From a virus: a DNA stretch of 64,000 nt. Of this stretch, positions 2,562-56,893 are shown in pieces. The translations under genes and the position numbers were made by a program. The stretch lies in IMG/VR virus record IMGVR_UViG_3300009506_003033, positions 20,499 through 84,498 of that record. One strand, given 5' to 3'. The notes under the pieces were generated by a model that did no database searches, was not told the origin of the DNA, and was given only the letters and a program-made list of their open reading frames with translations. Position 1 is the stretch's first letter, and each line of letters opens with the position of its first letter.

Positions 2562-2918
2562 CTAGTCGCGACGGGCCACCGAGGCACGTTCGCGTTCCAA
2601 AATCCGGTAAGCCTCTTCGATCATACCGTCGACGGCTTCTTTTGAAATGTCGACGTTATGTTTCCGAGCCAATGCGGGCCATTCTGTTTTCCAGACATCC
2701 AAGGCATGACATTCGCAACCGATCGCTACGTAGCGCCACGGAATCAGCAAAAAAGCATCTTCGCCATCTATCGTTCCTATGTTAGTATTGTAGCCGTAGC
2801 CGGAGCCGTAGCCGGAGCCGTAGCCGGAGCCGTCGCCGTCGCCGTAGCCGTAGCCGGAGCCGGAGCCGGAGCCGTAGCCGTAGCCGGAGCCGGAGCCGAG
2901 ATGAATATCTATGGCCAT
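2562..2918 (-). CDS. Gly-rich (GSGYGYG) phage protein
   Basis: In-frame Gly-X repeats then a VAIGCECH domain; coupled to the upstream gene. Confidence 0.7.
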   Translation of the reverse strand: MAIDIHLGSGSGYGYGSGSGSGYGYGDGDGSGYGSGYGSGYGYNTNIGTIDGEDAFLLIPWRYVAIGCECHALDVWKTEWPALARKHNVDISKEAVDGMIEEAYRILERERASVARRD

Positions 2919-5271: not shown

Positions 5272-5649
5272 TCAATTGTCCGCTCTAATGGAATTAGTCG
5301 ATGCCTGGAGCGGTTCAGCGCTTCGACATTCTAACATCGCGACTAGTCGTTTGAGCTTCTCGACAGAGAGCGAGGATAGATCGCGTTGACACAAGACGCG
5401 AATATGACGGATCAGTTCTCGCCGCAACTGATCCTCTCTAATTTGGTCCAGTTCTCCGTTTTCAGGTAGTCTGATGAATGTCGAATCCCACTGATTATGA
5501 CGGCCTATTTCGCGGCCATCGCGTTTTCGGAACGCTCTGTTGCACACAATGATGCGTGTTGGCGTCACGCGCTCAATACGGCAAATGTGATTCTTGTGAA
5601 GCGAGCACAAGATCAATTCGTCGCCGACTTGAACATTGTCGAGGCTCAC
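5272..5649 (-). CDS. Hypothetical protein (SH3-like N-terminus)
   Basis: LDNVQVGDEL..IERVTPTRIIV..FRKRDGREIG pattern. Confidence 0.6.
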   Translation of the reverse strand: MSLDNVQVGDELILCSLHKNHICRIERVTPTRIIVCNRAFRKRDGREIGRHNQWDSTFIRLPENGELDQIREDQLRRELIRHIRVLCQRDLSSLSVEKLKRLVAMLECRSAEPLQASTNSIRADN

Positions 5650-5791
5650 AGCAGACCCCTTCGATTCGTGTTGGTGTTTCTTTCAGCCGCCAGTTGCCGC
5701 GAAATTGGACCACCGAGCCACATCTGCTACACTCGCTGATGGGTCGAGCAGATATCATTTCGTGGCGGCAAGTACGACAAAACCATTTCAT
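5573..5791 (-). CDS. Zn-ribbon protein, first leftward gene
   Basis: CxxC..CxxC; GGGGAG RBS right after the leftward promoter. Confidence 0.5.
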   Translation of the reverse strand: MKWFCRTCRHEMISARPISECSRCGSVVQFRGNWRLKETPTRIEGVCCEPRQCSSRRRIDLVLASQESHLPY

Positions 5792-5806
5792 TTTTTGCTC
5801 CCCGTC

Positions 5807-5840
5807 TTGACAATTATAGCAGATGGGCTAGACTAGTCAA
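5807..5840. promoter_or_regulatory. Overlapping divergent promoters
   Basis: Plus strand TTGACA-16-TAGACT (5807-5834); minus strand TTGACT-16-TATAAT (5840-5813); located at the strand switch. Confidence 0.8.
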
Positions 5841-5851
5841 TAGAGGTTTCG

Positions 5852-6073
5852 ATGAGAAATTTGACGACGCGACAGGTGGCTGAAATTCTGCAGGTGACTC
5901 GCGGCCGAGTACGACAGTATGTATGCAGAGGGCAGCTCCAGGCCGGCAGGTTCAACCACGATCTGGAGTTTTCCCCGGAGGATGTGGAAAAATTCCGGCA
6001 AAAACTGGCCCAGCACCCGCTCGCAAACTGTCATGTGGCAACAATTTACGGTGATTCCGATGATCCCGGCTGA
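5852..6073 (+). CDS. Excisionase/Cro-like HTH DNA-binding protein
   Basis: LTTRQVAEILQVTRGRVRQYV..GQL. Confidence 0.8.
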   Translation: MRNLTTRQVAEILQVTRGRVRQYVCRGQLQAGRFNHDLEFSPEDVEKFRQKLAQHPLANCHVATIYGDSDDPG

Positions 6074-22322: not shown

Positions 22323-22371
22323 GGCTTGACGCCTATCGAACGATGTGATAACGTGCATTGCTATACTAGAC

Positions 22372-23433
22372 ATGCAGTTTAGCAAATTCATGGTCGGATT
22401 CAAAGTACAAATCGTAGCCGTCGTTCTGGTACTGGCCTCGTGGACATCTACCAGTGCCGAGCGGTGCATCGTTTTCGCCCAAGGTGCAGGCGGATGGTTC
22501 CGTGGAATGGGTGTGCTGGTAGCCAAGGAAGGCACTCGTGGCCTCGTGATGTCGGCGAAGCACGTTGTCCGAAATGCACGCGGTTCTGTGATTTGCCGAT
22601 TTGTTGGCGGTGATGTGCGAGTGAGTCAAGTGTTGCGTGTCCCGAATGCAGATATTTGCGGCATGTTGATTGACAATGTACCCGCAAGGGCAGAGCCGAC
22701 ATCGTTTGCCGAAGAAGCGCCAAGTGGCAGCGTTGGCACATTTCGAGGTCAGGCTCCGATCACTGTGCAAAATGTGTCGAGCCTGAACGGTTTGCCTCAA
22801 ATCGGATGGCTTGCATCTAGTCCACAAGGGGATTCAGGTGGACCGGTATACAACAGCAATCACGAAGTCGTCGGCATTCTTTGGGGATCCGATGGAAGAA
22901 CATCGATGTCGGAGAGCTATGCGACGGCGCGATGGGCATATGTGCAATTTTGTCAGGCATGGAATTTTCCATGTCCGAGTTGCCAACCGTTACCTTCTGG
23001 GAGGATGGTTGTAGTCCGGCCGACGCAACCGGCTGCTCCTGCTGGTAGTTCAACTCAAGTCGGTCCCTCACAGGCGACGCTGTCGCAGGAGCAGCTTCTA
23101 AACACTCTGTTGGAAAGGATGGCCAAGGATGAAAGGTTCCGGGGAGTTGCCGGACCCAGTGGGCCTCCTGGCCCGATCGGTCCTGCTGGTGGCGATGGCA
23201 GAGATGGATCTGTGGGTGCTCAGGGACCTCGCGGACCTGTTGGAGAACCTGGCCCGCCAGGACAAGATATCGACGCGAGCGGTGCTATGGCAGCGATTGC
23301 AGCAATCGGCAATCGAATTGATGATCTGACGTTTACCGTCGAGGTTGTTCAACCCGACGGAACTGTTGACACCGGTGTTGTTGTGCACGTCGACGGAGGC
23401 GTGCTCCGTATTAACCTTTCTGGAAAGGAGTAA
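22372..23433 (+). CDS. Secreted trypsin-like serine protease with collagen-like repeat
   Basis: Signal peptide, SAKHVV, ADI, QGDSGGPV triad motifs, (Gly-X-Y)n stretch. Confidence 0.85.
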   Translation: MQFSKFMVGFKVQIVAVVLVLASWTSTSAERCIVFAQGAGGWFRGMGVLVAKEGTRGLVMSAKHVVRNARGSVICRFVGGDVRVSQVLRVPNADICGMLIDNVPARAEPTSFAEEAPSGSVGTFRGQAPITVQNVSSLNGLPQIGWLASSPQGDSGGPVYNSNHEVVGILWGSDGRTSMSESYATARWAYVQFCQAWNFPCPSCQPLPSGRMVVVRPTQPAAPAGSSTQVGPSQATLSQEQLLNTLLERMAKDERFRGVAGPSGPPGPIGPAGGDGRDGSVGAQGPRGPVGEPGPPGQDIDASGAMAAIAAIGNRIDDLTFTVEVVQPDGTVDTGVVVHVDGGVLRINLSGKE

Positions 23434-26088: not shown

Positions 26089-26763
26089 ATGCCTGTTTTC
26101 TGTCTTTGCACCGGCCGCTGCGGATCGCAATCTATAGTTGATCTGCTGAAGCGAAACGGCGTCGAAGGCTGTCATCACGAGAAATATCCGGCACTCTTTC
26201 GTGAAGCAATCGGTTATTATTACGGGCTCTACAGTCGGGATCGAATCGTAGCGAAGTTGCGAGAGACGCGGCAGGGCGTGTTCTTCGAGGCCAACAACAA
26301 ACTCTTTCCGTTGGCCAAGCCTCTTTTTCAGGCGTTTCCCGACGCCAAGTTCATGGTTCTGCATCGCGACGGCAGAGAAGTAGTGCGGTCGGCTCTTCAG
26401 AGCAATTGGTATCATCCCAAAGATCCCTATGGCATGTTGAGGCTCGGTGCGAGGATGAGAATCTCGCAGTTCAAGAAGGTGTGTCGATATTGGTCTGAAG
26501 TTTACCGGCGCATCTACGATGATCTGGCATCGCTGGATTGTGAATTCATTGAAGTACGATTCGATGAATTGATCAAAGGCAAATTGGCGGATCAGCTCGG
26601 CAAGTTCATCGGCAGGAGGCTAAGACTTCGCGTGCCGCGGAGACTGCACCGCACGAAGCGATGGACGGTGAAACCATACGCGCAGTGGAAGCCCGAGCGG
26701 CAGCGAGAATTTCGGAGCATCTGCGGCCCGATGATGGAACGGCTGGGATATTCTTTCGATTGA
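26089..26763 (+). CDS. Sulfotransferase family protein
   Basis: TGRCGSQ (5'-PSB loop), FPDAKFMVLHRDGREVVRS, RFDEL, MERLGY. Confidence 0.85.
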   Translation: MPVFCLCTGRCGSQSIVDLLKRNGVEGCHHEKYPALFREAIGYYYGLYSRDRIVAKLRETRQGVFFEANNKLFPLAKPLFQAFPDAKFMVLHRDGREVVRSALQSNWYHPKDPYGMLRLGARMRISQFKKVCRYWSEVYRRIYDDLASLDCEFIEVRFDELIKGKLADQLGKFIGRRLRLRVPRRLHRTKRWTVKPYAQWKPERQREFRSICGPMMERLGYSFD

Positions 26764-26768
26764 CGGTA

Positions 26769-26796
26769 TTGACAGAATATCGCAGTCGTTTATAAT
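26769..26796 (+). promoter_or_regulatory. Sigma70 consensus promoter of the RAMP/array locus
   Basis: TTGACA-16-TATAAT. Confidence 0.85.
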
Positions 26797-26806
26797 CTGG
26801 TTTATA

Positions 26807-26910
26807 CGGTGTGGCAGCCGAAGAGTCCGGAGAGCCAAAACCCTTCGGTGTTCGCAACGAGCGCTTCTCCGGTGCTCACTGCCACGCGGTCACCGAAGGG
26901 TTTTTGTTTT
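26807..26910 (+). ncRNA. C4/CI-like leader RNA, copy 4
   Basis: a=GTGGCAG, b=CCGGAGA; stem AAAACCCTTCGGTG/CACCGAAGGGTTTT encloses loop TCTCCGG and bulge CTGCCAC; U-tract. Confidence 0.7.
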
Positions 26911-26916
26911 GATGGA

Positions 26917-27105
26917 GACGGGGCGCGGCGTGGCGCGGCGAGGCATGGCAGGGCGGGGCGGGGCCAGGCAAGGCGAGGCAGGCGTGGCATGGCAGGCGAG
27001 GCAGGCAGGGCTTGGCATGGCAGGCGAGGCGAGGCGCGGCGAGGCGAGGCAGGCAGGGCACGGCAGGGCATGGCAGGGCCAGGCAGGGCGAGGCAGGCAT
27101 GGTTT
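26917..27105 (+). repeat. GGY-NN pentamer array 1 (putative guide RNA array)
   Basis: GGC-GC GGC-GT GGC-GC GGC-GA GGC-AT... with GGCA phase breaks. Confidence 0.9.
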
Positions 27106-27107
27106 TC

Positions 27108-27139
27108 GTCCGATGTGAGTGCATCGGACACTTTTTTCC
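27108..27139 (+). terminator. Hairpin closing array 1
   Basis: GTCCGATG-TGAGTG-CATCGGAC followed by ACTTTTTT. Confidence 0.7.
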
Positions 27140-27175
27140 TTTACTGCTGGCACAGGCCAGCAAGGAGTTATTGTC

Positions 27176-27865
27176 ATGGCAAAGGCCAAGAAACCAGAAG
27201 GTACGATCGAACTTCAGCGGCTCGAAGAGGCCATTCTTGAGGTGCCCATCATCGGCAAGACACCGTTGATCCCGCACAAATGGTCGGAGAAGGCCAAAGG
27301 CATGATGCCAGGGCATCCTGATCGAGACAAAGTGAAAGCCGATAAGGGTACTCGCGATCCAGCAAAGGAAGCCGAGTCCTGCCAGTACAAACTCGGCGAA
27401 CAGTACGCAGTTCCCGCTACTGCGTTCAAAGCGGCTATGATTGGTGCTTGTCGATTCTTCGAGAAGCCTACGATGGTCGAAGCCAAATCGCTGGTGTACG
27501 TCGAAGGTTCTGGCGCTGATCAGCTTGTCGAATTCGACTACAAGGACAAAGAGTTGCACGAGGATACTCCTCGCAACTCAAATGGCAGCGCCGATCTGCG
27601 GTATCGATACTATTTCACGAACTGGTCAGCTGTTCTGCGAATCTTGTACGTGCCGAAGATCATCTCCCGAGAGTCCATCATTGCTCTTGTTGATGCTGCG
27701 GGCCGCGGAGGCATCGGCGATTGGCGGCCGAGTGCCCCAAAGTCGATGACGGGAACGTACGGCACGTGGCGAGTCGATGATCGCGGCACGATCAGAGACA
27801 TCGATCCGAAAGATGTTGACAAGACATCGCCTAAACCAAAGCGGAAAGCATCAAAAGCAATCTGA
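27176..27865 (+). CDS. Stand-alone RAMP/Cas7-like RNA-binding protein (229 aa)
   Basis: Beta1 ILEVPIIGKTPLIPH; YAVPATAFKAAM (compare RAMP IPGSSLKG); C-terminal Gly-rich loop GRGGIGDWRP..GTYGTWRV; AAGGAG RBS. Confidence 0.75.
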   Translation: MAKAKKPEGTIELQRLEEAILEVPIIGKTPLIPHKWSEKAKGMMPGHPDRDKVKADKGTRDPAKEAESCQYKLGEQYAVPATAFKAAMIGACRFFEKPTMVEAKSLVYVEGSGADQLVEFDYKDKELHEDTPRNSNGSADLRYRYYFTNWSAVLRILYVPKIISRESIIALVDAAGRGGIGDWRPSAPKSMTGTYGTWRVDDRGTIRDIDPKDVDKTSPKPKRKASKAI

Positions 27866-27880
27866 TGTTTTGCGGTTGAA

Positions 27881-28760
27881 GACATGGCAAGGTAAGGCTA
27901 GGCCGGGCATGGCGCGGCAAGGCAAGGCCAGGCGTGGCAGGTTGGGTTCGGCTTGGCAAGGCTGGGCAGGCCAGGCTTGGCATGGCATGACTGGGTCTGG
28001 CAGGGCTCGGCGGGGCTTGGCGAGGCAGGCGAGGCGCGGCCAGGCTTGGCACGGCTTGGCTGGGCCAGGTGAGGCAAGGCAAGGCGTGGCAGGCTAGTCG
28101 CGGCCAGGCATGGCTGGATTAGGTAGGGCTTAGCGAGGCGAGGCACGGCAGGCGTGGCGTGGCGTGGCTAGGCAAGGCATGGCGTGGCAGGCGAGCCAAG
28201 GCTAGGCAAGGCGGGGCAAGGCTGGGCGCGGCAGGGCGAGGCTTGGCTTGGCTCGGCAAGGCGCGGCAGGCGCGGCAGGGCTCGGCGCGGCAAGGCAGGC
28301 AAGGTGTGGCGCGGCATGCGCGGCAAGGCAGGCGAGGCGTGACGAGGCGAGGCCAGGCCCGGCGAGGCGAGGCCAGGCCCGGCGAGGCGAGGCGAGGCGC
28401 GGCGAGGCGAGGCAGGCAGGGCACGGCAGGGCATGGCAGGGCGGGGCAAGGCCGGGCTTGGTTTGGCATGGCAAGGCTGGCGAGGCAGGCAAGGCGAGGC
28501 AGTCGTGGCTTGGCGGGGCATGGCATGGCCTGGCAGGGCAAGGCGCGGTGGGGCTGGGCAAGGCGTGGCAGGCATGGCCCGGCATGGCGCGGCGAGGCGG
28601 GACAGGGCGGGGCACGGCTGGGCATGGCAAGGCTGGCGAGGCAGGCAAGGCGAGGCAGTCGGGGCTCGGCATGGCGGGGCTGGGCTAGGCCAGGCGTGGC
28701 AGGTTGGGTTCGGCTTGGCAAGGCTGGGCTTGGCCCGGTAAGGCAAGGCGCGGCAGACAT
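27881..28760 (+). repeat. GGY-NN pentamer array 2 (880 bp)
   Basis: Continuous 5-nt periodicity, variable NN, segmented by GGCA or GGCT tetramers. Confidence 0.92.
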
Positions 28761-28762
28761 GA

Positions 28763-28800
28763 TGCTGGCGGTAAGTGCCGCCAGCAATATTTTCTTTCTC
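28763..28800 (+). terminator. Hairpin closing array 2
   Basis: TGCTGGCGG-TAAGTG-CCGCCAGCA followed by a T-rich tail. Confidence 0.7.
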
Positions 28801-28833
28801 TAACGTTCGCATAGGCGGACAAGGAGTTGTGTT

Positions 28834-29547
28834 ATGGCTAAGGCCAAATCTAGTGTAATCACGATGTCACTGTCTGAACTTGTGGAGGACATGGAATTGT
28901 ACCCGCGGCATGCTGTTGACAATGCACATGTCGCTTCTCTCGTGTTGGCGATGGAATCCGGCAGTCAATTGCCGCCGATCGTCGCTGACAAGAAATCCAA
29001 ACGGATCACTGATGGATGGCATCGGGCCAGGGCCTATGCGCGAATACATGGCCCAACGGCGACTGTAGAGGTCGAACTAATCGACTATGCATCAGAAGCA
29101 GATATGATTTTTGATGCAGTGCGACGTAATTCTGCTCACGGTCGCAAGCTCGATTCAATGGATCAAACGCGGTCCATCCACATGATGGAAAAACGAGGCT
29201 TGCAATCGATTCAAATCGCGGCTGCCTTGAATGTGCCAGAGAAACGGATCGAGAAGCTGCGGATCAAAGTCGCGAGCAGCCGATCATCCGGGATTGCTAC
29301 GGTTCCAGGCACGAAGTCGATCACGTTGAAGCGATCGTGTTCTCACATGGCCGGCAAATCATTGACAGCCGATCAAGTAAAAGTGCACGATTCGGCGCCT
29401 GGAACCAGCTATCTATTGGTTTCACGACAATTGCGAGAGGCACTGCGAGTTGAACTAGTGAATCTCGACGATGAGCGACTGGTGGAAGAACTTTGTGCTC
29501 TGCGTGACGCACTGAATGAGTACTTGGAGCAGCTTTGTGCTGCTTGA
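28834..29547 (+). CDS. ParB/Srx-like domain protein with HTH
   Basis: LYPR..LPPIVAD..ITDGWHRARA..NSAHG; IQIAAALNV. Confidence 0.8.
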   Translation: MAKAKSSVITMSLSELVEDMELYPRHAVDNAHVASLVLAMESGSQLPPIVADKKSKRITDGWHRARAYARIHGPTATVEVELIDYASEADMIFDAVRRNSAHGRKLDSMDQTRSIHMMEKRGLQSIQIAAALNVPEKRIEKLRIKVASSRSSGIATVPGTKSITLKRSCSHMAGKSLTADQVKVHDSAPGTSYLLVSRQLREALRVELVNLDDERLVEELCALRDALNEYLEQLCAA

Positions 29548-29721
29548 GGTTTAGGTCTGGGCAAGGCGTGGCAAGGCCAGGATGGGCTCGGCGGGGCGTG
29601 GCAGGCAGGGCACGGCAAGGCAGGGCGAGGCCGGGCCAGGCGCGGCATGGCCTGGCATGGCGCGGCGCGGCGAGGCAGGCGAGGCAAGGCGCGGCTTGGT
29701 GTGGCAGGCGAGGCAAGACAT
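29548..29721 (+). repeat. GGY-NN pentamer array 3
   Basis: Begins right after the ParB-like stop codon; same grammar as arrays 1 and 2. Confidence 0.9.
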
Positions 29722-29756
29722 CGCGGATATGAAACATGAAAGGTGTGGCGAATGAA

Positions 29757-29960
29757 ATGAAAACCTACACGAAAACAAAGCTACTGGCATATTACAAAGA
29801 GCTCGGAAAAACGCCGCCTAAGTGGGTGTTGGAGGCGCCGGAGAATGCGTTATTCAATCAAGGCTTGACACCATACGGTCACGTTCCGCTGTATATCAAG
29901 GGGATGCCTGCACCGAAAGCACAACCTGATGTTGTATCAATCGACTTTCCGGACGCTTAG
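29757..29960 (+). CDS. Small hypothetical protein between arrays
   Basis: MKTYTKTKLLAYY..; non-repetitive composition. Confidence 0.55.
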   Translation: MKTYTKTKLLAYYKELGKTPPKWVLEAPENALFNQGLTPYGHVPLYIKGMPAPKAQPDVVSIDFPDA

Positions 29961-29964
29961 AGAA

Positions 29965-30208
29965 GGCTGGCATTGTAGGCGTGGCACGGCCGGGCATGGC
30001 TCGGCAGGGCGCGGCCAGGCGCGGCCAGGCGTGGCAGGCGTGGCAGGCGTGGCTTGGCGCGGCAAGGATAGGCAAGGCAAGGCTAGGTTTGGCGAGGCGC
30101 GGCGAGGCCGAGCTCGGCGCGGCTGGCTTGGCATGGCTTGGCGAGGGCCGGTTTGGCCAGGCGCGGCATGGCTTGGCATGGCGCGGCGCGGCGAGGCAGG
30201 CGAGGTGC
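29965..30208 (+). repeat. GGY-NN pentamer array 4
   Basis: Same grammar; its 3' block is shared with array 3. Confidence 0.9.
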
Positions 30209-30271: not shown

Positions 30272-31441
30272 GTGACATTGCAGGTAGAGACAGTGCCGAT
30301 TGACAGCGTGAGTCCTGATCCGGCGAACACGATGAACCATCCACCGCGGAACATCTCTGCCATTGAGGGATCGCTGAAGCGGTTCGGACTTCGTAAGCCG
30401 ATCGTCGTCGATAGCAACGGGGTCATCAGGGCCGGCAATGGGACATGGCAGGCAGCCAAGAATCTCGGCTGGCAAACAATTGATGTTGCACGGACTAATC
30501 TCGCTGGTTCCGAGGCAACGGCCTATTCCATCGCTGACAATCGCACGGCTGAACTGGCGGAATGGAACGAGGAGTTACTGGCTAGACTCTTGCCGGAGAT
30601 GGATTACGAGTTGCAACTCGCTACCGGATTTGATGAGGACGATCTGAAAGAGTTGTTCGCTGAACAATTGAACAACACGGACAGCGAGATAGATCGTGAA
30701 CCACTTATCGATAAGGCCGGAGAACTTCAGAGGAAATGGAAGGTTGAGTTGGGCCAATTCTGGCAAATTGATCGGCACCTTGTATATTGCGGGGATGCTC
30801 TTGACTGGTCTTACGAAGCAGATGGAGTTTGCACCGATCCACCGTATGACATGAGTTGCGAAACGATTCGAACGGTCGTCCGTCAATATGCAAAAGTAGC
30901 AGCTGTTATCTGTACGGGACGCCAGGCATTCAATTTAGCGAGGGATGGATGGGAATATGCAATGGACTTATGTTGGAGTCATAAATCTCCACGATCAATC
31001 AACACGAAGCGTACGCCATTGTTCTACCACGCGAATGTTGTCGTGATGAATCTGGGCGGAAACAAGACCGACTGGACGCGACCGAGGCCAAATTACGGCA
31101 GTCTATTACATCACGAATACGAGGACTGGGGAGGCCACGGCCAAGGCAAGTCGCCGAACTTATTCGCAGAAATTATGGAAGGATTTCCCTGGGAAACGAT
31201 GGCTGATCCTTTCGCCGGAACGCTTGCGACACTTATTGCGGCTCACAAACAAGGCAGAACATTCATTGGATGCGAAAAAGAGCCAAAAATGCTGGCGGTA
31301 GGGCTTGAACGTTGCAGCCTATTGTGTCCTAAGGTGTTGACAGACAAGCAGTTGAGTCGGTATAATGCGGGAAAGCTTGCTGGTGGTCAGCAAGCGATCC
31401 CGAAACATGCTCGAACTGTGAAGGAGTCCGAGAATGTCTGA
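30272..31441 (+). CDS. ParB-N domain / DNA methyltransferase fusion
   Basis: AGGAGG RBS with GTG start; PIVVD..AGNG..IADNR; TDPPY, DPFAG. Confidence 0.85.
   Translation: MTLQVETVPIDSVSPDPANTMNHPPRNISAIEGSLKRFGLRKPIVVDSNGVIRAGNGTWQAAKNLGWQTIDVARTNLAGSEATAYSIADNRTAELAEWNEELLARLLPEMDYELQLATGFDEDDLKELFAEQLNNTDSEIDREPLIDKAGELQRKWKVELGQFWQIDRHLVYCGDALDWSYEADGVCTDPPYDMSCETIRTVVRQYAKVAAVICTGRQAFNLARDGWEYAMDLCWSHKSPRSINTKRTPLFYHANVVVMNLGGNKTDWTRPRPNYGSLLHHEYEDWGGHGQGKSPNLFAEIMEGFPWETMADPFAGTLATLIAAHKQGRTFIGCEKEPKMLAVGLERCSLLCPKVLTDKQLSRYNAGKLAGGQQAIPKHARTVKESENV
31337..31366 (+). promoter_or_regulatory. Internal sigma70 promoter
   Basis: TTGACA-18-TATAAT inside the MTase 3' end. Confidence 0.55.
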
Positions 31442-32222
31442 AGCTATTTTAGCGGAATCGTTGCCGAAAGGAATTAAGTCAACCAAGATAGCGTGGACGG
31501 ACACCACGCTCAATTTTTGGATCGGCTGCCAGAAGATCAGTCCTGGCTGTAAGAACTGCTACGCCGAGCGGATTGTCAGAGATCGGATGGGTCGCGAGCA
31601 CTGGGCCACATCGCCACGATGGCGGACGAAAGCGGCATGGGATGATGCCTATCGCTACAACCGAATCGCCAAGAATGCTGGGCGTCGAATCATGGTATTC
31701 GCCAACGACATGTCTGATTGGGCTGAAGATCATCCCGATGTCAATCGTTGGCGATGGGACATGTGGCGGGTGATCAAGGAATGCCGCTGGCTTGACTGGC
31801 AGCTACTGACAAAAAGAGCCGATCGCATCGCAAGATGCTTGCCAGCGGACTGGAATGATGGATACCCGAACGTCTGGCTTGGTGTTTCGATCGAATCGGA
31901 TGATTATTGCTGGCGAGCTGATAGGCTCCGGGAAGTAAATTCTGGAATCAGATTCATCAGTTATGAACCGGCATTAGGTCCGCTCGATAGCCTCGATCTA
32001 GCTGGTATTGACTGGCTGATCATCGGCGGAGAATCAGGACCGCATTATCGGCCGTTCGATCACAATTGGGCTCGGGAGCTACGAGTACGATGCGCCCTGT
32101 CGAACACAGCATTTTTCTTCAAGCAATCAGCTGCCATCAGGACAGAGATGGGGATAGAACTTGATGGGGCAATCGTCAGGGAATACCCAAAAGTGATGTC
32201 AGATCTAGTAGGTGTGGGATAG
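31434..32222 (+). CDS. Phage Gp37/Gp68 (DUF5131) family protein
   Basis: IAWTD..GCQKISPGCKNCYA, LLTKR, ISYEPALG, IIGGESG, FFFKQ. Confidence 0.9.
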   Translation: MSEAILAESLPKGIKSTKIAWTDTTLNFWIGCQKISPGCKNCYAERIVRDRMGREHWATSPRWRTKAAWDDAYRYNRIAKNAGRRIMVFANDMSDWAEDHPDVNRWRWDMWRVIKECRWLDWQLLTKRADRIARCLPADWNDGYPNVWLGVSIESDDYCWRADRLREVNSGIRFISYEPALGPLDSLDLAGIDWLIIGGESGPHYRPFDHNWARELRVRCALSNTAFFFKQSAAIRTEMGIELDGAIVREYPKVMSDLVGVG

Positions 32223-51460: not shown

Positions 51461-54400
51461 GTGGCATTCACACTAGACAACTCGACGCAAGGTGCATATA
51501 GCACCGACGATCCACAAACGACCAGCCACACATGTGCAGTCGGGGCGGATTTGCTGGTGTTGCGGATCTTCGTCAACGGCACAAATGCAAGGACGGGTGG
51601 TGCTCCATCTTATGCTGGCCAGCCAATGACGGATTCCGGACAGGGATTCGTTGCCGGAAATGAAGATGGATGTGAGTTGTGGTATATCTTGGCTCCTGCA
51701 TCTGGAGCCAACAATGTTAGCATTCCTAATACTAGCCCATCCAAGAATATCCAGGCCAGTATTACTTCTTATTTTGCTGGTGCTGGCAATGATGCTGCCT
51801 TCGACAACGACAATTCAGGCACTGGCGATTCGCAGAATCCGTCTATATCTCTCAGCACGGGAGTGAACAATTGCCTTATTGATGCCGTGGTGGCCTCATC
51901 AGACAGGGATCCACCGACAGTTGGAACGGCGGAGTCATATGTTCTCGTCCACACGCTTGATGTTGGGAACCAGACATGGGGGAGTGAATATGCGTTGGAT
52001 GTGGGTGCATCCGGAGCACAAACGGTTGATTTTCACACACTTCGCAGCGATCAATGGGCGTTGATCGCCGCATCATTCAAAGAAATCGCAGCGGCAGTAC
52101 CCTCTGTATCTCCAAGCGTGTCACCTACGGGTTCACCGTCAGCATCTCCGTCAGCATCTCCATCAGCGTCTCCGAGTGCATCACCGTCGGTCTCCCCGAG
52201 TTTATCACCGTCGGCATCTCCCACGGCGTCGCCTTCGGCATCTCCATCTGTTTCGCCCAGTTTATCTCCGAGTCTTTCACCAAGTGTTTCTCCAAGTCTC
52301 TCGCCGTCGGCGAGTCCGACTGCATCTCCGTCCGCATCGCCAAGTCTTTCGCCATCTGGTTCACCATCGGCGTCTCCAAGTTTGTCGCCATCATTATCAC
52401 CCAGTTTATCCCCGTCCGCATCTCCATCGCCCAGTTTATCTCCTTCACTTTCGCCATCAGCATCACCTAGTGTATCACCGAGCGGATCTCCCAGTGCATC
52501 TCCTTCAGTTAGCCCCAGTGCATCGCCTTCGGCTAGTCCTAGCGTATCGCCATCATTGTCTCCAAGTTTATCGCCATCAGCATCACCGAGCCTTTCACCC
52601 AGTTTGTCTCCGTCGGCTTCGCCTAGCGTATCGCCATCATTGTCACCGAGCATATCGCCGTCGGTATCGCCTTCACCGAGCATGTCGCCGTCGGCCTCAC
52701 CTAGTCTTTCTCCATCGGCGTCACCGAGTGCTTCTCCATCAGCGTCACCATCGGTGTCACCATCGATATCGCCTTCACCAAGTCTATCACCGTCCGCATC
52801 GTCATCTATTGCACCGAGTAATGATTTTAGTGGCGATCCACATTGCGTCGCATTGTGGAAGTTAGAATCAAGTGCTCTCACAGTAGATTCCATTGGTACT
52901 AACACGCTCACTAATCACAATGTCGCCGAAGACACCGGGGATTACAAAGAAGGTGCGTGTAGCGGTGACTTCGTAGCTGCCAGTACGGCTTATCTCGATA
53001 TAACGGATGCTAATCTTGATAGTGGATTCCCGCTGAAAAGCGGCGAATCGAACAAAGCAATCTCCATATGCTTCTGGGTAAAGTGGGACAGCTTCGCGGT
53101 TTACAATATCGACAGTTTATTTGCCAAATGGAATGCACCCAACGACAGGTCATTTACCGTCCGTAGATACAGTACCCAAGTGGATCTGATAATCGGGCAC
53201 ACGGGTGGTACCGATTTTGAAACTGTGACTCATGCATCTGCGGTTCAGACGGGCCGATGGTATCACATCGGAGCGACGTTTGATGATTCAACAAAGGCCT
53301 ATAGAATCCGAATTTGGGATGACACTGCCGGCTCAATTCTCGGTGTAGATAAAACTGGCAATACAACAAACAACATCTCAATAACAACTGCGGATCTGCA
53401 AATTGGACAACAATCCGCATATTATTTAGATGGTCGTGGCGATGAGATCGTTGTATTTGACGACATTCTCTCTGCAGATGAAATAGACGAGATACGGCAA
53501 GGTCTCTATGCTCCGACCGGTCCCTCGCTATCTCCATCTGCGTCACCGAGTCAGTCTCCATCAGGATCACCGTCTGCATCACCATCAGCCAGCCCTAGTC
53601 TGTCCCCGAGTTTATCGCCATCAATTTCCCCAAGTGTATCTCCATCAGCAAGTCCGTCTGCATCACCTTCGGGATCTCCATCAGCATCGCCTAGCGTATC
53701 GCCTTCGATATCACCTAGTTTATCGCCTTCCATATCTCCATCACCGAGCATATCTCCATCGGCAAGTGCTGTTCCTCCGTCGGTATCGCCGAGCTTATCA
53801 CCGAGCATATCGCCGTCCGGATCGATAGTACCCAGTTGGTCTCCGGGAGCTAGTCCGAGCCCGAGCATTAGTCCGTCACCATCTGTCTCGCCTAGCCTAT
53901 CACCATCGATATCACCCAGTCCGTCTATATCTCCTAGTGCTAGCCCAACAGTCAGTCCCAGTCCATCATTATCGCCGAGTGCCAGCCCTTCCGGATTGGC
54001 AGACTTCCTGACGATAACGATAGACAACAGCGGCAAGGGAGCATATACCGATGTGCAACTCTCTTGTGACATTACAGCTGCACCGGGGATGCGAAATGAT
54101 TTCAGGGATCTCAGATTATATGACGGCGCATCCCCAGTAGCATTCGAGCTGTCAGAAATTGTCGATAGCACATCTTGCGAATTGTGGTTCAAGTGGACTC
54201 AGGGTGCCGACGACATAGATGAACTGCAATTGTGGTATAGGCCGGATCGGCCAGATGGTGGAGATGGTGCCTCGGTATTTCAGCTCTACGATGATTTCGA
54301 GTCAACGTTTGGCTATGAGAGATTAAATCCTGCCACATATCAAACGACACCAACTCCAGATCTTACTGGGCAAGGTGTCCATCCATCGGTAATCAAGTTC

Positions 54401-56893
54401 GATTCGCCGTGGCCAGACGAGAGCGGATGGATGTATTGGATGGCATTCACTCCATATGCCAATAGCGATCCAGCAAAGGAACTTCCATGCGTAGTCGTGA
54501 GTGACGACGGCGAAACTTGGGAAAATCCGCCAGGCACGGCGTTCAACCCTATCAACGATCCCGCGACCGGTGTCAATAGTGATCCATGCATCGTGTATGA
54601 CGACGATCAGGATGAGATCGTAGTCTACTACAATTGGCACGACGACGTTGATCACAAGACGTGCATGCGGACCATCGATACCAATCTGGATGTGTCCGCA
54701 GAGATTACCGTGCTTCTCAGTGATTACGCTGTCACGAGAGAAGCGGCACCCAGCGTGGTAAAGATCGGTGTCCAGTGGTTCAACTGGGGCGTGGAACTCA
54801 TCGATTCGATGATGAGGATATTCTATCGTCCGATGAACAGCCGATCTTCGATGGATTTGGCCAGACAATACATCACTTGGGACAGCAACGAAGTATCCAA
54901 TCCATGGCATTGCAGCATACGATACGATGCGGACAATGCTGAATATGTGATGATCATCGTCACCGGCAATGGCGGTGCCGGGCCGATATACATGGCCCAT
55001 TCAGATGATCGACTTCATTGGGACGGATATCCATATCCATTGCTGCGCCCAGGATTCAGCACGGCTTGGGATTGGAAGTTGTATCATCCCACCATCTTAT
55101 TAGACGGCGATGACTACAGAATTTGGTATTCGGCCTACAACGATTCTGGTGGACCAGTTGTATGGAGGATCGGATATGGAGAAACCACTCGCACCGAAGC
55201 GATAAACCGAGTCAACGGTACTGGCGCGCCTCCAGACAACGATTGGACGTATACGAACGTCTACACGGCGGGATGGCATCGTGACGGCAGAAGAAATTCC
55301 AGGCGATCGTACTGCGGAACATTCGAGGGATGGAGCGGACAGTATACACTCAAATCTGTGCCGAGCCCGCACACGTTTTATCAGGAATGCATGTTCTATG
55401 ATAATGTCGAATCGTTCAAATTCAACTTGTTTCTCGTCTACAATGGTTCGCAAACAGCGGGGATGGGTGTCAATTGGGACACATCTACGACTAAGTATGT
55501 TTACAAAGACAAGGTAGGTGCATACACAGCGAGTGCGATAAATCGATCGGCAGGATGGCATAGATTCAGCATACTTGTTGAATCGGATGATAGCATCACT
55601 TTCTATGTCGACGACGTTGAAGCCGGCAGTCTAGCAGGCCAATTCTCCGATGTCACTCACGCCAGAGTCCACGGTGATGGACAAGTGCAAGTGGATGAAC
55701 TTTGGGTGCGAAAGTACCTAGCCGACATGCCGGTGGTGACGTTAGGAAATCCACCGAGCGCGAGTCCATCCCTCAGTCCATCGGCGTCGCCATCTGCATC
55801 GCCATCTTTGAGTCCAAGTGCCAGTCCGAGCATCAGCCCGAGCCCGAGTCTCAGCCCAAGTGTTAGCCCGAGCCCGAGCATCAGTCCGAGTGCTAGTGCG
55901 GTGCCACCGTCGGTTAGTCCGAGTTTGTCACCATCTGCATCACCTTCTCTGTCGCCATCTTTGAGTCCATCGCTGTCACCGTCAGTATCTCCATCTTTGA
56001 GCCCATCGGCAAGTCCGTCTCCTTCGATATCACCTTCGATATCACCTTCCGCATCGCCATCTCTCAGCCCGTCGATGTCACCATCAGCATCGCCGTCTTT
56101 GAGCCCGTCGGTATCTCCGACGGCATCGCCGTCGGCATCGCCTTCAGTGTCACCATCTTTATCCCCGACCGCATCGCCGTCGATTTCGCCATCACCTTCG
56201 GCTTCTATTTCAGCGTCGCCATCGGCGTCACCGTCTCTCAGTCCATCAGTTTCACCTTCGCTCAGTCCATCAGCATCGCCGTCATTGAGTCCATCGCTAT
56301 CTCCATCGGTGTCGCCTTCCCTCAGTCCATCGGTGTCACCGTCTCTCAGTCCATCGTTATCGCCTTCGGTATCTCCGTCTCTAAGTCCATCGTTGTCACC
56401 ATCGGCATCACCCTCGGTCAGTCCGTCGCCATCGCTATCGCCGTCAGCCAGCCCGAGTGCATCCCCGTCGATAAGAGGCGTGCTCTCTGGCACGTTATCA
56501 ATTACCACGAGATTGTCTGCGACATTGGGCATCGGCAGCCGACTAACCGCTACAATAGGAGTCAACAATATGTCCATTCCGACGCTTTACATATCGGAAG
56601 ACAACCGATTCAGAATCACTGGCCTGAAAGACGTAGAGGAAGACGAATACGTCAACAATGCCACGGGAACATGGGAAGTTCAAACCAGGACCGGTGGAAG
56701 TATCGAGGGAGCATCTGGCGACATGACTTACCTCACAGGGACCAATGGAAATTACGTTGGATACATGGATTCAGCCGTTGCTGCATTACTCACGGAGGTC
56801 GGTAGATATCGGGTGATTATATCGATGACCAGCGACGGGCGCGATTTGTATCGTTTATTGAGCGTTCCAGCAGCATATCATGGCACCGTATAG
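51461..56893 (+). CDS. Giant virion-associated protein: SPSX repeats, LamG, DUF2341-like and glycosidase-like propeller domains
   Basis: WYHIGATFD/DEIVVFD (LamG), DFRDLR (DUF2341-like), VHPSV..WMAFTPY (propeller); three Ser-Pro blocks. Confidence 0.8.
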   Translation: MAFTLDNSTQGAYSTDDPQTTSHTCAVGADLLVLRIFVNGTNARTGGAPSYAGQPMTDSGQGFVAGNEDGCELWYILAPASGANNVSIPNTSPSKNIQASITSYFAGAGNDAAFDNDNSGTGDSQNPSISLSTGVNNCLIDAVVASSDRDPPTVGTAESYVLVHTLDVGNQTWGSEYALDVGASGAQTVDFHTLRSDQWALIAASFKEIAAAVPSVSPSVSPTGSPSASPSASPSASPSASPSVSPSLSPSASPTASPSASPSVSPSLSPSLSPSVSPSLSPSASPTASPSASPSLSPSGSPSASPSLSPSLSPSLSPSASPSPSLSPSLSPSASPSVSPSGSPSASPSVSPSASPSASPSVSPSLSPSLSPSASPSLSPSLSPSASPSVSPSLSPSISPSVSPSPSMSPSASPSLSPSASPSASPSASPSVSPSISPSPSLSPSASSSIAPSNDFSGDPHCVALWKLESSALTVDSIGTNTLTNHNVAEDTGDYKEGACSGDFVAASTAYLDITDANLDSGFPLKSGESNKAISICFWVKWDSFAVYNIDSLFAKWNAPNDRSFTVRRYSTQVDLIIGHTGGTDFETVTHASAVQTGRWYHIGATFDDSTKAYRIRIWDDTAGSILGVDKTGNTTNNISITTADLQIGQQSAYYLDGRGDEIVVFDDILSADEIDEIRQGLYAPTGPSLSPSASPSQSPSGSPSASPSASPSLSPSLSPSISPSVSPSASPSASPSGSPSASPSVSPSISPSLSPSISPSPSISPSASAVPPSVSPSLSPSISPSGSIVPSWSPGASPSPSISPSPSVSPSLSPSISPSPSISPSASPTVSPSPSLSPSASPSGLADFLTITIDNSGKGAYTDVQLSCDITAAPGMRNDFRDLRLYDGASPVAFELSEIVDSTSCELWFKWTQGADDIDELQLWYRPDRPDGGDGASVFQLYDDFESTFGYERLNPATYQTTPTPDLTGQGVHPSVIKFDSPWPDESGWMYWMAFTPYANSDPAKELPCVVVSDDGETWENPPGTAFNPINDPATGVNSDPCIVYDDDQDEIVVYYNWHDDVDHKTCMRTIDTNLDVSAEITVLLSDYAVTREAAPSVVKIGVQWFNWGVELIDSMMRIFYRPMNSRSSMDLARQYITWDSNEVSNPWHCSIRYDADNAEYVMIIVTGNGGAGPIYMAHSDDRLHWDGYPYPLLRPGFSTAWDWKLYHPTILLDGDDYRIWYSAYNDSGGPVVWRIGYGETTRTEAINRVNGTGAPPDNDWTYTNVYTAGWHRDGRRNSRRSYCGTFEGWSGQYTLKSVPSPHTFYQECMFYDNVESFKFNLFLVYNGSQTAGMGVNWDTSTTKYVYKDKVGAYTASAINRSAGWHRFSILVESDDSITFYVDDVEAGSLAGQFSDVTHARVHGDGQVQVDELWVRKYLADMPVVTLGNPPSASPSLSPSASPSASPSLSPSASPSISPSPSLSPSVSPSPSISPSASAVPPSVSPSLSPSASPSLSPSLSPSLSPSVSPSLSPSASPSPSISPSISPSASPSLSPSMSPSASPSLSPSVSPTASPSASPSVSPSLSPTASPSISPSPSASISASPSASPSLSPSVSPSLSPSASPSLSPSLSPSVSPSLSPSVSPSLSPSLSPSVSPSLSPSLSPSASPSVSPSPSLSPSASPSASPSIRGVLSGTLSITTRLSATLGIGSRLTATIGVNNMSIPTLYISEDNRFRITGLKDVEEDEYVNNATGTWEVQTRTGGSIEGASGDMTYLTGTNGNYVGYMDSAVAALLTEVGRYRVIISMTSDGRDLYRLLSVPAAYHGTV
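52100..56472 (+). repeat. Three coding (S-P-S-X)n low-complexity blocks
   Basis: About 52100-52800, 53520-53990 and 55753-56472; synonymous codons are diversified. Confidence 0.9.

What the first reader, a model, noticed from the sequence alone, without database searches (positions are those of the whole stretch)
26769..30208. Candidate phage RNA-guided system: stand-alone RAMP/Cas7-like gene within GGY-NN pentamer arrays
Seen in sequence: a consensus promoter, then a leader RNA, array 1, a 229-aa gene, array 2, a ParB-like gene, array 3, a small gene and array 4, all on one strand. The arrays total about 1.5 kb. They hold GGC (sometimes GGT) fixed every 5 nt while the other two bases vary widely, which is unlike a drifting microsatellite. 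The 229-aa protein has RAMP hallmarks: beta1 ..GKTPL, PATAFKAAM, and a C-terminal Gly loop GIGDWRP..GTYG. Established: Cas7-family RAMPs polymerise along RNA with a fixed footprint and expose bases for target pairing. Inference: the protein coats the array RNA one subunit per pentamer, binding GGY and presenting NN, so the run of NN dinucleotides forms a discontinuous programmable guide. There are no CRISPR repeats, cas1/cas2 or obvious nuclease, which suggests binding or repression of competing phage or host DNA. I recall a recent preprint naming RAMP plus GGY/NN loci VIPR; I cannot verify that here, so novelty must be checked.
Basis: partly seen in the sequence, partly recalled or inferred. 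Interest (0 to 1): 0.97.

Follow-up and report, generated by a model that had tools for sequence, protein, structure and literature searches.

The report
Phage VIPR system with staggered guide arrays
This marine-sediment phage carries a genuine example of the VIPR RNA-guided DNA-silencing systems first described in 2026: a Cas7-like protein, a ParB-like helper gene and four long arrays of five-letter guide repeats, though what the guides target could not be found.

Summary
This scan has also logged it on other DNA: 448 notes in at least 339 genomes.

Evidence for membership:
- The 229-aa protein's only PDB sequence match is the SUSP1 Vipr protein (profile E 5.8e-12).
- It keeps four GGY-contacting residues.
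- It folds as a Cas7-type RAMP (pLDDT 92.6; Foldseek E 1.4e-7).

The arrays:
- Four same-strand arrays hold 292 pentamer units (263 GGC, 15 GGT, 14 degenerate).
- 4-nt GGCA joints cut them into 36 register segments, 19 of guide length. This is the published "staggered" layout.

Relatives:
- 73 of 85 homologue loci carry same-strand arrays, and 47 of 47 with adequate flanks do.
- A ParB/KorB-fold gene is the conserved partner in 34 of 85 loci.

Targets:
- No target was found: 8 public pattern scans plus offline scans.
- However, the NN spectrum mirrors sense-strand codon positions 1-2 (r 0.83, p 5e-5).

Verdict: a new member of a known kind. It is notable for array size, tail-less staggered punctuation and a ParB-like accessory gene.

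The parts
26769..26796 (+). Consensus sigma-70-type promoter (TTGACA, 16 nt, TATAAT) upstream of the locus
   Evidence: 12 of 12 hexamer matches; sequence read
26803..26921 (+). Leader: long imperfect hairpin (about 26837-26904) followed by a U-tract, shaped like a terminator or attenuator; not conserved in relatives
   Evidence: RNA fold -46.2 kcal/mol, z -2.57; no Rfam match; no blastn match in the loci
26922..27100 (+). vrRNA array 1: 7 register segments (12, 3, 2, 4, 6, 9, 1 units) joined by GGCA 4-nt units
27108..27139 (+). Terminator-like hairpin plus T-tract closing array 1
27176..27865 (+). vipr: 229-aa Vipr (stand-alone RAMP, Cas7-like) protein
   Evidence: PDB 36pp 'SUSP1 Vipr protein' E 0.0026 single sequence and 5.8e-12 profile; phrog_4652 E 3.9e-29; AF2 pLDDT 92.6; Foldseek top hits Csm3, type VII Cas7, Cmr4, Cas7-11
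27886..28756 (+). vrRNA array 2: 20 register segments (up to 17 units), inserted between vipr and the accessory gene; contains a 156-nt near-duplicate
28763..28796 (+). Terminator-like hairpin plus T-tract closing array 2
28834..29547 (+). Candidate vap: 237-aa ParB/Noc/KorB-fold accessory protein, the conserved same-strand neighbour of vipr in this subclade
   Evidence: phrog_1033 E 2e-13; in 34 of 85 homologue loci; AF2 pLDDT 95.2; Foldseek pNOB8 ParB-N, Noc, ParB, KorB E 7.6e-7 onward
29560..29711 (+). vrRNA array 3: 4 register segments (9, 15, 6, 1 units)
29736..29960 (+). 74-aa ORF between arrays 3 and 4; no family, not conserved next to vipr; membership in the system doubtful
29978..30203 (+). 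vrRNA array 4: 5 register segments (12, 2, 16, 15, 1 units)

Best explanation
The locus is a VIPR (Viral Interference Programmable Repeat) system carried by a roughly 84.5-kb tailed provirus from marine sediment.

Transcription (inferred): transcripts start at the consensus promoter and produce long GGY-NN repeat RNAs.

Filament assembly (inferred by homology to SUSP1 VIPR): Vipr protomers polymerise on the RNA, one per pentamer. Each GGY is held by the thumb arginine and the G-loop D-W-R. The NN dinucleotides are exposed.

Guide boundaries (inferred from the sequence and a published figure legend): each 4-nt GGCA joint shifts the register by one base. That ends one filament and starts the next. 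The four arrays therefore encode about 19 guides of 8-17 units with no 3' tail between them, which is the 'staggered' layout.

Target recognition (shown for SUSP1, inferred here): each guide reads double-stranded DNA as NN-x-NN-x, skipping every third base. It blocks transcription of a rival mobile element or another gene. The skipped base most likely falls on the codon wobble position of the sense strand.

Accessory protein (inferred): the ParB-fold protein is the DNA-binding helper (vap) of this subclade.
For: Protein:
- The only PDB sequence match is 36pp 'SUSP1 Vipr protein' (E 0.0026 single sequence; E 5.8e-12 with a 76-sequence profile).
- The alignment places R144, D182, W183 and R184 opposite SUSP1 R138, D177, W178 and R179. 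The structure paper names those as GGY contacts.
- R144, R184 and P185 are at least 90% conserved, and G176 and G179 invariant, across 76 diverse homologues.
- The AF2 model has pLDDT 92.6. The top 50 Foldseek hits listed are all Cas7-family chains, E 1.4e-7 to 2.4e-5.

Arrays:
- 29 strict runs occur only here and only on the gene's strand.
- There are 32 4-nt joints.

Association:
- 73 of 85 homologue loci carry same-strand arrays, against 5 of 85 with any minus-strand run.
- All 47 loci with at least 300 nt of flank on both sides have arrays.
- The 12 loci without arrays all have under 300 nt on at least one side.
- 74 of 82 one-base-overlap joints in relatives read GGCAGGC.

Accessory gene:
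- Present in 34 of 85 loci, always on the same strand, and mostly within -8 to +53 nt of vipr.
- Present in 22 of the 30 loci whose Vipr is at least 55% identical.

Code:
- The NN spectrum correlates with sense codon positions 1-2 of the phage's own genes (r 0.83, permutation p 5e-5). For 2,761 units from relatives, r is 0.86.
- Every other phase or strand gives r of 0.25 or less, and genomic dinucleotides 0.37 or less.
- The signal persists after removing single-base composition (r 0.60 and 0.73).

Other:
- No self-target above the shuffled null, as the paper reports for its loci.
- No Cas1 or Cas2.
- Promoter and two terminator-like hairpins.
Against: - No target was found. Seven exact NN-x-NN scans gave 0 hits. 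An 8-unit core gave 28 hits, none of which extended (best 6 of 12).
- 136 unique guides scanned against 432 kb of related loci plus this phage showed no excess over shuffles at any skip length. The 1-nt-skip rule is therefore not directly confirmed in this clade.
- No RNA data exist for this locus.
- Only the C-terminal third of the protein aligns to SUSP1 Vipr by sequence. The SUSP1 contacts H17 and K33 could not be mapped.
- The fold comparison was with CRISPR Cas7 proteins only. The SUSP1 Vipr entry did not appear in the Foldseek results, whose library ends 8 April 2026.
- Terminator-like hairpins follow only 11 of 76 array ends in relatives.
- The ParB assignment rests on fold and a PHROG. 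0 of 36 family members match Pfam ParB_N at E 0.01 or better.
- Public short-read contigs break inside the arrays, so the exact length of array 2 rests on the original assembly.
Confidence: 0.9

Rival explanations
1. The pentamer arrays act as DNA, not RNA. They would be centromere-like or iteron-like binding sites for the adjacent ParB-like protein (a partition or silencing locus), and the RAMP-like gene would be a bystander.
For: A ParB-fold gene sits between the arrays. A second ParB_N-methylase gene follows array 4. Partition sites are often repeat arrays; that last point is from general knowledge, not from a call.
Against: Arrays accompany Vipr homologues in 73 of 85 loci, while the ParB-like gene is present in only 34 of 85. 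Array polarity is tied to the vipr strand: 73 loci against 5. The variable dinucleotides have a codon-like spectrum, which a protein-binding site would not need. The homologous SUSP1 protein is shown in print to bind GGY-NN RNA.
Confidence: 0.03
2. It is a VIPR system, but its guides are aimed at host genes (for example anti-phage defence genes) or serve as decoys, rather than at rival phages or satellites.
For: The guides read like sense-strand codons, which fits any conserved coding target. Earlier unchecked notes of this scan claim defence-gene targets for other VIPR loci. The third preprint shows decoy-directed solo vrRNAs (abstract). Rival-phage targets were not found in IMG/VR.
Against: No host genome is known for this provirus, so this could not be tested. 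One such motif-spelling claim on other DNA partly fell on checking. The published natural targets of the two analysed clades are mostly satellites and prophages.
Confidence: 0.2
3. The arrays are a decaying or selfishly expanding microsatellite-like repeat next to a RAMP gene, and most segments no longer function as guides.
For: 14 of 292 units are degenerate. 17 of 36 segments are shorter than 8 units. Blocks are duplicated within and between arrays: 93% over 73 nt, and 78% over 156 nt. No targets were found.
Against: GGY is kept in 278 of 292 units while NN uses all 16 dinucleotides. The joints are uniform: 29 of 32 are GGCA. The same joint is conserved in relatives. The NN spectrum is codon-like, not repeat-like.
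Confidence: 0.05

Closest known systems
VIPR systems with 'staggered' vrRNA arrays (bioRxiv 10.64898/2026.04.26.720920; main text and fig. S18 legend read)
   Same: A Vipr RAMP gene plus a vap gene plus GGY-NN repeats. Consecutive guides overlap by one base with no tail between them. The system is carried by a provirus.
   Different: I could not see the figure or the tables, so I cannot say whether this clade, its ParB-like vap or its type number is already listed. The paper says staggered arrays were not among the architectures confirmed by small-RNA sequencing. This locus has four arrays and about 292 units, more than any of the 85 relatives I fetched (maximum 144 strict units against 242 here), though many of those are truncated.
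Type II VIPR of Escherichia phage SUSP1 and the Pseudomonas fulva prophage (same preprint; structures in 10.64898/2026.04.26.720927; PDB 36pp)
   Same: The protein is homologous (E 5.8e-12). It has the same G-loop motif G-x-G-D-W-R-P and the same thumb arginine. The repeat unit is the same GGY-NN, and guide lengths are similar (published 9-16 repeats; 8-17 here).
   Different: SUSP1 vrRNAs are separate units of about 100 nt, each capped by an invariant 3' tail with a pseudoknot. Here there are no tails, only 4-nt joints. Only the C-terminal third of the protein aligns by sequence. The accessory gene is ParB-like, and 'ParB' occurs nowhere in the text of that paper.
Cas7-family backbone subunits of class 1 CRISPR effectors (Csm3, Cmr4, type VII Cas7, Cas7-11)
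   Same: RRM core, thumb hairpin and glycine-rich loop. Foldseek E 1.4e-7, probability 1.00.
   Different: TM-scores are only 0.40-0.51 and identity 8-16%. The contig has no CRISPR repeats, cas1, cas2 or other cas genes. The footprint is 5 nt with 2 read bases, rather than 6 nt with 5 read bases.
ParB/Noc/KorB family of DNA-binding proteins (for the accessory gene)
   Same: An N-terminal ParB-type domain followed by a helical DNA-binding part. Foldseek E 7.6e-7 to pNOB8 ParB-N, then Noc, ParB and KorB. Matches phrog_1033.
   Different: 0 of 36 family members reach Pfam ParB_N at E 0.01. Profile search of PDB sequences gives ParB only at E 0.22. Nucleotide binding, clamp formation and any specific site are untested.

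Membership tests
VIPR system | Protein homologous to a characterised Vipr protein | tested here: met
   The only PDB sequence hit is 36pp 'SUSP1 Vipr protein', E 0.0026 and 5.8e-12 with a family profile
VIPR system | Minimal RAMP fold: RRM core, thumb, glycine-rich loop, no second RRM | tested here: met
   AF2 pLDDT 92.6, pTM 0.86, with a beta-hairpin at 142-158 and a Gly loop at 176-196. All listed Foldseek hits are Cas7-family. The domain labels are my reading of the secondary structure.
VIPR system | Residues that hold GGY in SUSP1 Vipr (H17, R138, D177, W178, R179) | tested here: inconclusive
   R144, D182, W183 and R184 align to R138, D177, W178 and R179. H17 and the backbone contact K33 lie outside the aligned part and could not be mapped.
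VIPR system | Tandem GGY-NN (YNNGG) repeats of at least 4 units flanking the gene on its strand | tested here: met
   29 strict runs and 242 units on the + strand, with 0 on the - strand and 0 elsewhere. The tolerant parse gives 292 units.
VIPR system | Gene-array association conserved across homologues | tested here: met
   73 of 85 loci, and 47 of 47 with both flanks at least 300 nt
VIPR system | Accessory vap gene next to vipr | tested here: met
   A ParB-fold gene is in 34 of 85 loci, on the same strand, usually abutting vipr. Whether it equals one of the published vap1-6 is unknown because supplements are closed.
VIPR system | No CRISPR array and no cas1/cas2 | tested here: met
   No CRISPR-like repeats in TRF. 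Cas1 and Cas2 profiles give 0 matches on the contig while controls ring.
VIPR system | Arrays expressed as small RNAs that co-purify with Vipr | not testable with these tools
   No RNA run is listed for this DNA. Only promoter and terminator-like motifs are available.
VIPR system | Guides match natural DNA targets under the 1-nt-skip rule | tested here: inconclusive
   No target in 8 public pattern scans or in offline scans. Indirect support comes from the sense codon-position 1-2 spectrum of NN.
Type II VIPR (SUSP1 type) | Each vrRNA capped by an invariant 3' tail with conserved structure | tested here: not met
   Segments are joined directly by 4-nt units. Only arrays 1 and 2 end in a hairpin, and those sequences are not conserved in relatives.
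CRISPR-Cas class 1 effector | Cas7 encoded with other cas genes and a repeat-spacer array | tested here: not met
   The neighbouring genes are ParB-like, methylase, sulfotransferase and terminase.
ParB/KorB family (accessory gene) | ParB N-terminal domain recognised by sequence profile | tested here: not met
   Pfam ParB_N: 0 of 36 members at E 0.01. The source database lists PF02195 for 7 of the 90 family members. phrog_1033 matches at E 2e-13.
ParB/KorB family (accessory gene) | ParB-type fold | tested here: met
   AF2 pLDDT 95.2. Foldseek hits pNOB8 ParB-N, Noc, ParB and KorB at E 7.6e-7 to 1e-3, TM 0.31-0.44.
ParB/KorB family (accessory gene) | CTP binding and clamp closure | not tested
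   Invariant D60, G61, H63, R64, N99, H102 and G103 lie where I recall the ParB arginine patch. That placement is recalled, not aligned here.

The most novel reading that the evidence does not exclude
In this subclade the Vipr-vrRNA filament may act as a programmable loading site for the ParB/KorB-fold accessory protein. The RNA guide would pick the address on rival DNA, and the ParB-like protein would then load and spread from it to silence a wider region. That would couple RNA-guided recognition to a ParB-type clamp.

Separately, the guides' strong sense-strand codon signature would mean they are either chosen for, or copied from, the coding strand of their targets.
Probability: 0.12. Interest if true: 0.75.

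Novelty: new member of a known kind. Interest (0 to 1): 0.3.

Why it matters
The class itself is in print, so the main value is confirmation and detail.

- The Vipr clade that includes cultured Mycobacterium and Gordonia phages uses tail-less guide arrays. They are punctuated only by a one-base register shift, or by a short GGCAG-linked spacer.
- A ParB-fold gene is the conserved partner in one subclade.
- The guide letters across 86 loci carry the composition of sense-strand codon positions 1 and 2. That is independent, target-free support for the published wobble-skipping logic.
- The mycobacteriophage relatives offer a tractable laboratory system for testing how staggered arrays are processed.

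Tried and rejected
Target hunting
- Self-scan of the 84.5-kb contig with 19 guides at skip 0-3: nothing above shuffled guides.
- Exact NN-x-NN motifs from 4 window guides in IMG/VR: 0 hits.
- One window guide in JGI metagenomes: 0 hits.
- One guide shared by phages Saal and Pippy, in IMG/VR and in GTDB genome contigs: 0 hits.
- An 8-unit core shared by guides 29604 and 30125 gave 28 IMG/VR hits, about the chance number. None extended (best 6 of 12 upstream positions).
- All-against-all scan of 136 unique guides over 432 kb: no excess at any skip length.
- In all, only 5 of the 19 window guides of at least 8 units were used in public scans.

Expression
- No RNA holder was listed for this DNA.
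- The two DNA runs, from one study, are Logan contigs that break inside the arrays. They tile most of array 2 with identical sequence but do not bridge it.

Other negatives
- Rfam: nothing.
- PADLOC: nothing for Vipr, the ParB-like gene or the 74-aa ORF.
- Leader and post-array sequences: no counterpart in relatives.
- Host: unknown.
- Type number (I-VII) could not be assigned. It depends on figures and tables I could not see.

Rejected readings
- A repetitive protein-coding region: the 5-nt period and the register shifts exclude a reading frame.
- A CRISPR variant: there are no cas genes or repeats.

Papers: what I saw
- 10.64898/2026.04.26.720920: outline, the whole Results, methods sections 18 and 20, and passages that include supplementary figure legends.
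- 10.64898/2026.04.26.720927: outline and sections 5-6.
- 10.64898/2026.10.15.759431: outline, section 17 and passages.
- 10.64898/2026.10.21.760802: passages only.
- Supplementary tables and data were not seen. They may already list this clade, its vap and its targets.
- The statements that ParB, staggered-array processing and a sense-strand bias are not described rest on the word searches and the listings only.

Full report
WHAT IS THERE

The window is the last 64 kb of a single 84,498-nt virus record. IMG/VR classes it as a provirus, and CheckV estimates it about 96% complete. It is a tailed phage: it has helicases, small and large terminase subunits, portal, head-morphogenesis and tape-measure-like genes. 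Two DNA runs of one marine-sediment study hold the locus, and no RNA run is listed.

In order, on the + strand:
- a 12-of-12 sigma-70 promoter at 26769-26796;
- a leader that folds into a long hairpin with a U-tract;
- array 1 (26922-27100);
- a terminator-like hairpin;
- a 229-aa gene (27176-27865);
- array 2 (27886-28756);
- another terminator-like hairpin;
- a 237-aa gene (28834-29547);
- array 3 (29560-29711);
- a 74-aa ORF;
- array 4 (29978-30203).

THE ARRAYS ARE NOT CHANCE

Uninterrupted GGY-NN runs of four or more units number 29 (242 units). All lie on the + strand inside 26922-30199. There are none on the other strand and none elsewhere in the contig. A tolerant parse gives 292 units: 263 GGC, 15 GGT and 14 degenerate. 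All 16 dinucleotides occur at NN.

The register is broken 32 times by a 4-nt unit, 29 times GGCA and 3 times GGCT. The last G of one run is therefore the first G of the next. This gives 36 segments. Of these, 19 have 8-17 units, which is close to the 9-16 repeats published for vrRNAs.

Blocks that span joints are duplicated. One 73-nt block is 93% identical between arrays 1 and 2, and a 156-nt block is 78% identical within array 2. The arrays therefore grow by segmental duplication followed by divergence at NN.

THE PROTEIN IS A VIPR

- Pfam and PADLOC find nothing. PHROGs gives phrog_4652, of unknown function, over the full length.
- The family is large: 788 close proteins and 2,225 50%-identity clusters at E 0.001 or better.
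- Against all PDB sequences the only real hit is 36pp, 'SUSP1 Vipr protein': E 0.0026 with the single sequence and 5.8e-12 with a 76-sequence profile.
- The alignment covers the thumb and the glycine-rich loop. It puts R144, D182, W183 and R184 opposite SUSP1 R138, D177, W178 and R179. The cryo-EM paper names those residues as holding G1, G2 and Y3.
- The AF2 model is confident (pLDDT 92.6). Its best structural matches are all Cas7-family subunits (Csm3, type VII Cas7, Cmr4, Cas7-11) at E 1.4e-7 and up, with modest TM-scores of 0.40-0.51.
- The contig has no Cas1, Cas2 or CRISPR-type repeats.

THE ASSOCIATION HOLDS IN RELATIVES

I examined 85 homologue loci: 1 from IMG/VR, 4 from cultured Mycobacterium and Gordonia phages (38-52% identity), and 80 metagenomic.
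- 73 carry same-strand GGY-NN runs, against 5 with any opposite-strand run.
- All 47 with at least 300 nt on both sides have arrays.
- The 12 without arrays are all truncated to under 300 nt on at least one side.

Arrays can lie upstream, downstream or on both sides of the gene. Boundaries between guides are marked in two ways. One is a one-base overlap, where GGCAGGC accounts for 74 of 82 such joints. The other is a short linker after GGCAG or GGCGT. The overlap form matches the 'staggered vrRNA arrays' of the discovery preprint, whose fig. [quoted passage not shown] The main text says this architecture was not among those confirmed by small-RNA sequencing.

With 242 strict units, this locus is the largest of the 86 loci. 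The next largest has 144, though many relatives are truncated. Earlier notes of this scan mention other arrays of 40-57 guides, so size alone is not unique.

THE ACCESSORY GENE

Of the flanking genes, only the 237-aa protein travels with vipr. It is found in 34 of 85 loci, always on the same strand, and usually within -8 to +53 nt of the vipr stop. It is in 22 of the 30 loci whose Vipr is at least 55% identical; five of the eight exceptions have under 430 nt downstream. It is in only 5 of 26 more distant loci that have at least 1 kb downstream. The 74-aa ORF, the ParB_N-methylase, the sulfotransferase and the small terminase occur in 0 of 85.

In this phage the 871-nt array 2 separates vipr from the accessory gene. 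That is the widest such gap seen; the next is 526 nt.

The model of the protein (pLDDT 95.2) matches pNOB8 ParB-N, Noc, CTP-bound ParB and KorB (E 7.6e-7 onward, TM 0.31-0.44), and phrog_1033 matches at E 2e-13. Against this, 0 of 36 family members reach Pfam ParB_N at E 0.01, and the PDB profile search gives ParB only at E 0.22. I call it ParB-fold, not a proven ParB. The word ParB does not occur in the text of the discovery paper or of the competition paper. Their supplements, which I could not open, may cover it. The complex predictor was unavailable, so I make no claim that the two proteins bind.

HOW IT MOST LIKELY WORKS

By homology, Vipr coats the array RNA one protomer per pentamer, sequesters GGY and presents NN. 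The guide pairs with DNA read as NN-x-NN-x and represses transcription. This is shown for SUSP1 and inferred here. A 4-nt joint cannot be bridged by a 5-nt filament. I therefore infer that the joints set guide boundaries, with or without cleavage.

Direct confirmation through targets failed:
- no self-target above shuffled guides, as the paper also reports for its loci;
- 0 hits for seven exact motif scans;
- 28 chance-level hits for a shorter core, none of which extends;
- no excess for 136 unique guides over 432 kb at any skip length.

An indirect test did give a signal. The NN dinucleotide spectrum of this locus correlates with codon positions 1-2 of the sense strand of the phage's own genes (r 0.83, permutation p 5e-5). 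So does the pooled spectrum of 2,761 units from relatives (r 0.86). All other phases and the antisense strand give r of 0.25 or less, and genomic dinucleotides give 0.37 or less. The signal survives removal of single-base composition (r 0.60, p about 0.01; r 0.73, p about 0.001).

This fits guides that copy the first two letters of sense-strand codons, so that the skipped base falls on the wobble position, as published for SUSP1 targets. It also suggests a strand preference that I did not find stated in the texts I read. RNA- or protein-binding constraints on NN could contribute to the signal, so this is support, not proof.

COMPARISON AND NOVELTY

The system meets the defining features of VIPR that can be tested in silico. 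It fails the type II feature of a conserved 3' tail. It is therefore a VIPR of the staggered-array kind, in a clade that includes cultured actinobacteriophages. I cannot give its type number.

The class, its code, its structures, non-canonical repeat units and large-scale catalogues are in four 2026 preprints. This scan has noted the class 448 times, in at least 339 genomes. It is a new member of a known kind.

The points that may be new are modest. Supplements I could not read might already cover them:
- the ParB-fold partner;
- the family-wide GGCAG punctuation;
- the target-free codon-phase signature;
- this locus's four-array layout.

Noticed in passing
window 26803-26921: The perfect promoter is followed at once by a strong hairpin (about 26837-26904) and a U-tract, before array 1. 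It looks like an intrinsic terminator or attenuator placed between promoter and array. It is not conserved in relatives and has no Rfam match.
   Followed up: partly
window 31337-31366: A second 12-of-12 sigma-70 consensus promoter lies inside the 3' end of the ParB_N-methylase gene, just upstream of the phrog_2045 gene (31434-32222) and the small terminase.
   Followed up: no
window 30272-31441: A ParB_N domain fused to an N6/N4 DNA methyltransferase (phrog_498 E 7e-50; Pfam ParB_N and N6_N4_Mtase) lies directly after array 4. It is not found next to vipr in any of 85 relatives, so it is probably a separate phage gene.
   Followed up: partly
window 26089-26763: A sulfotransferase-family gene (Pfam Sulfotransfer_3, E 2e-10) lies immediately upstream of the VIPR promoter. 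This is unusual phage cargo.
   Followed up: no
window 51461-56893: A 1,810-aa ORF is full of 12-, 24-, 36- and 60-nt tandem repeats (TRF rows 52136-56440), so it encodes a highly repetitive protein in the structural-gene region.
   Followed up: no
window 2790-2898: A hexamer repeat, GTAGCC in 18 copies at 89% match.
   Followed up: no
L063 and L065 (metagenome loci): These two near-identical loci carry 15 GGY-NN runs on the strand opposite to vipr in addition to 8 on its strand. This may be a second, inverted array or system.
   Followed up: no
L002-L005 (Mycobacterium phages Pippy and Saal; Gordonia phages Ecliptus and UmaThurman): In the GenBank records the arrays are unannotated or lie under 'hypothetical protein' CDS. 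Examples are UmaThurman gp40 at locus 5634-5957 and the 5' end of Pippy gp48 from 4842. These calls are probably spurious or start too early.
   Followed up: partly
L025, L039, L060, L062: Within the same Vipr family, guides are separated by short conserved linkers (GGCAG-CCAN or GGCAG-TCAN, GGCGT-TCAG, GGCAG-CAAN) instead of the one-base overlap. The window has two GGCAGTCG joints of this kind at about 28499 and 28655.
   Followed up: partly
window 22345-23433: A 362-aa ORF with weak tail-fibre or collagen-like PHROG matches (E 9e-8) sits among the early and replication genes, far from the structural module.
   Followed up: no
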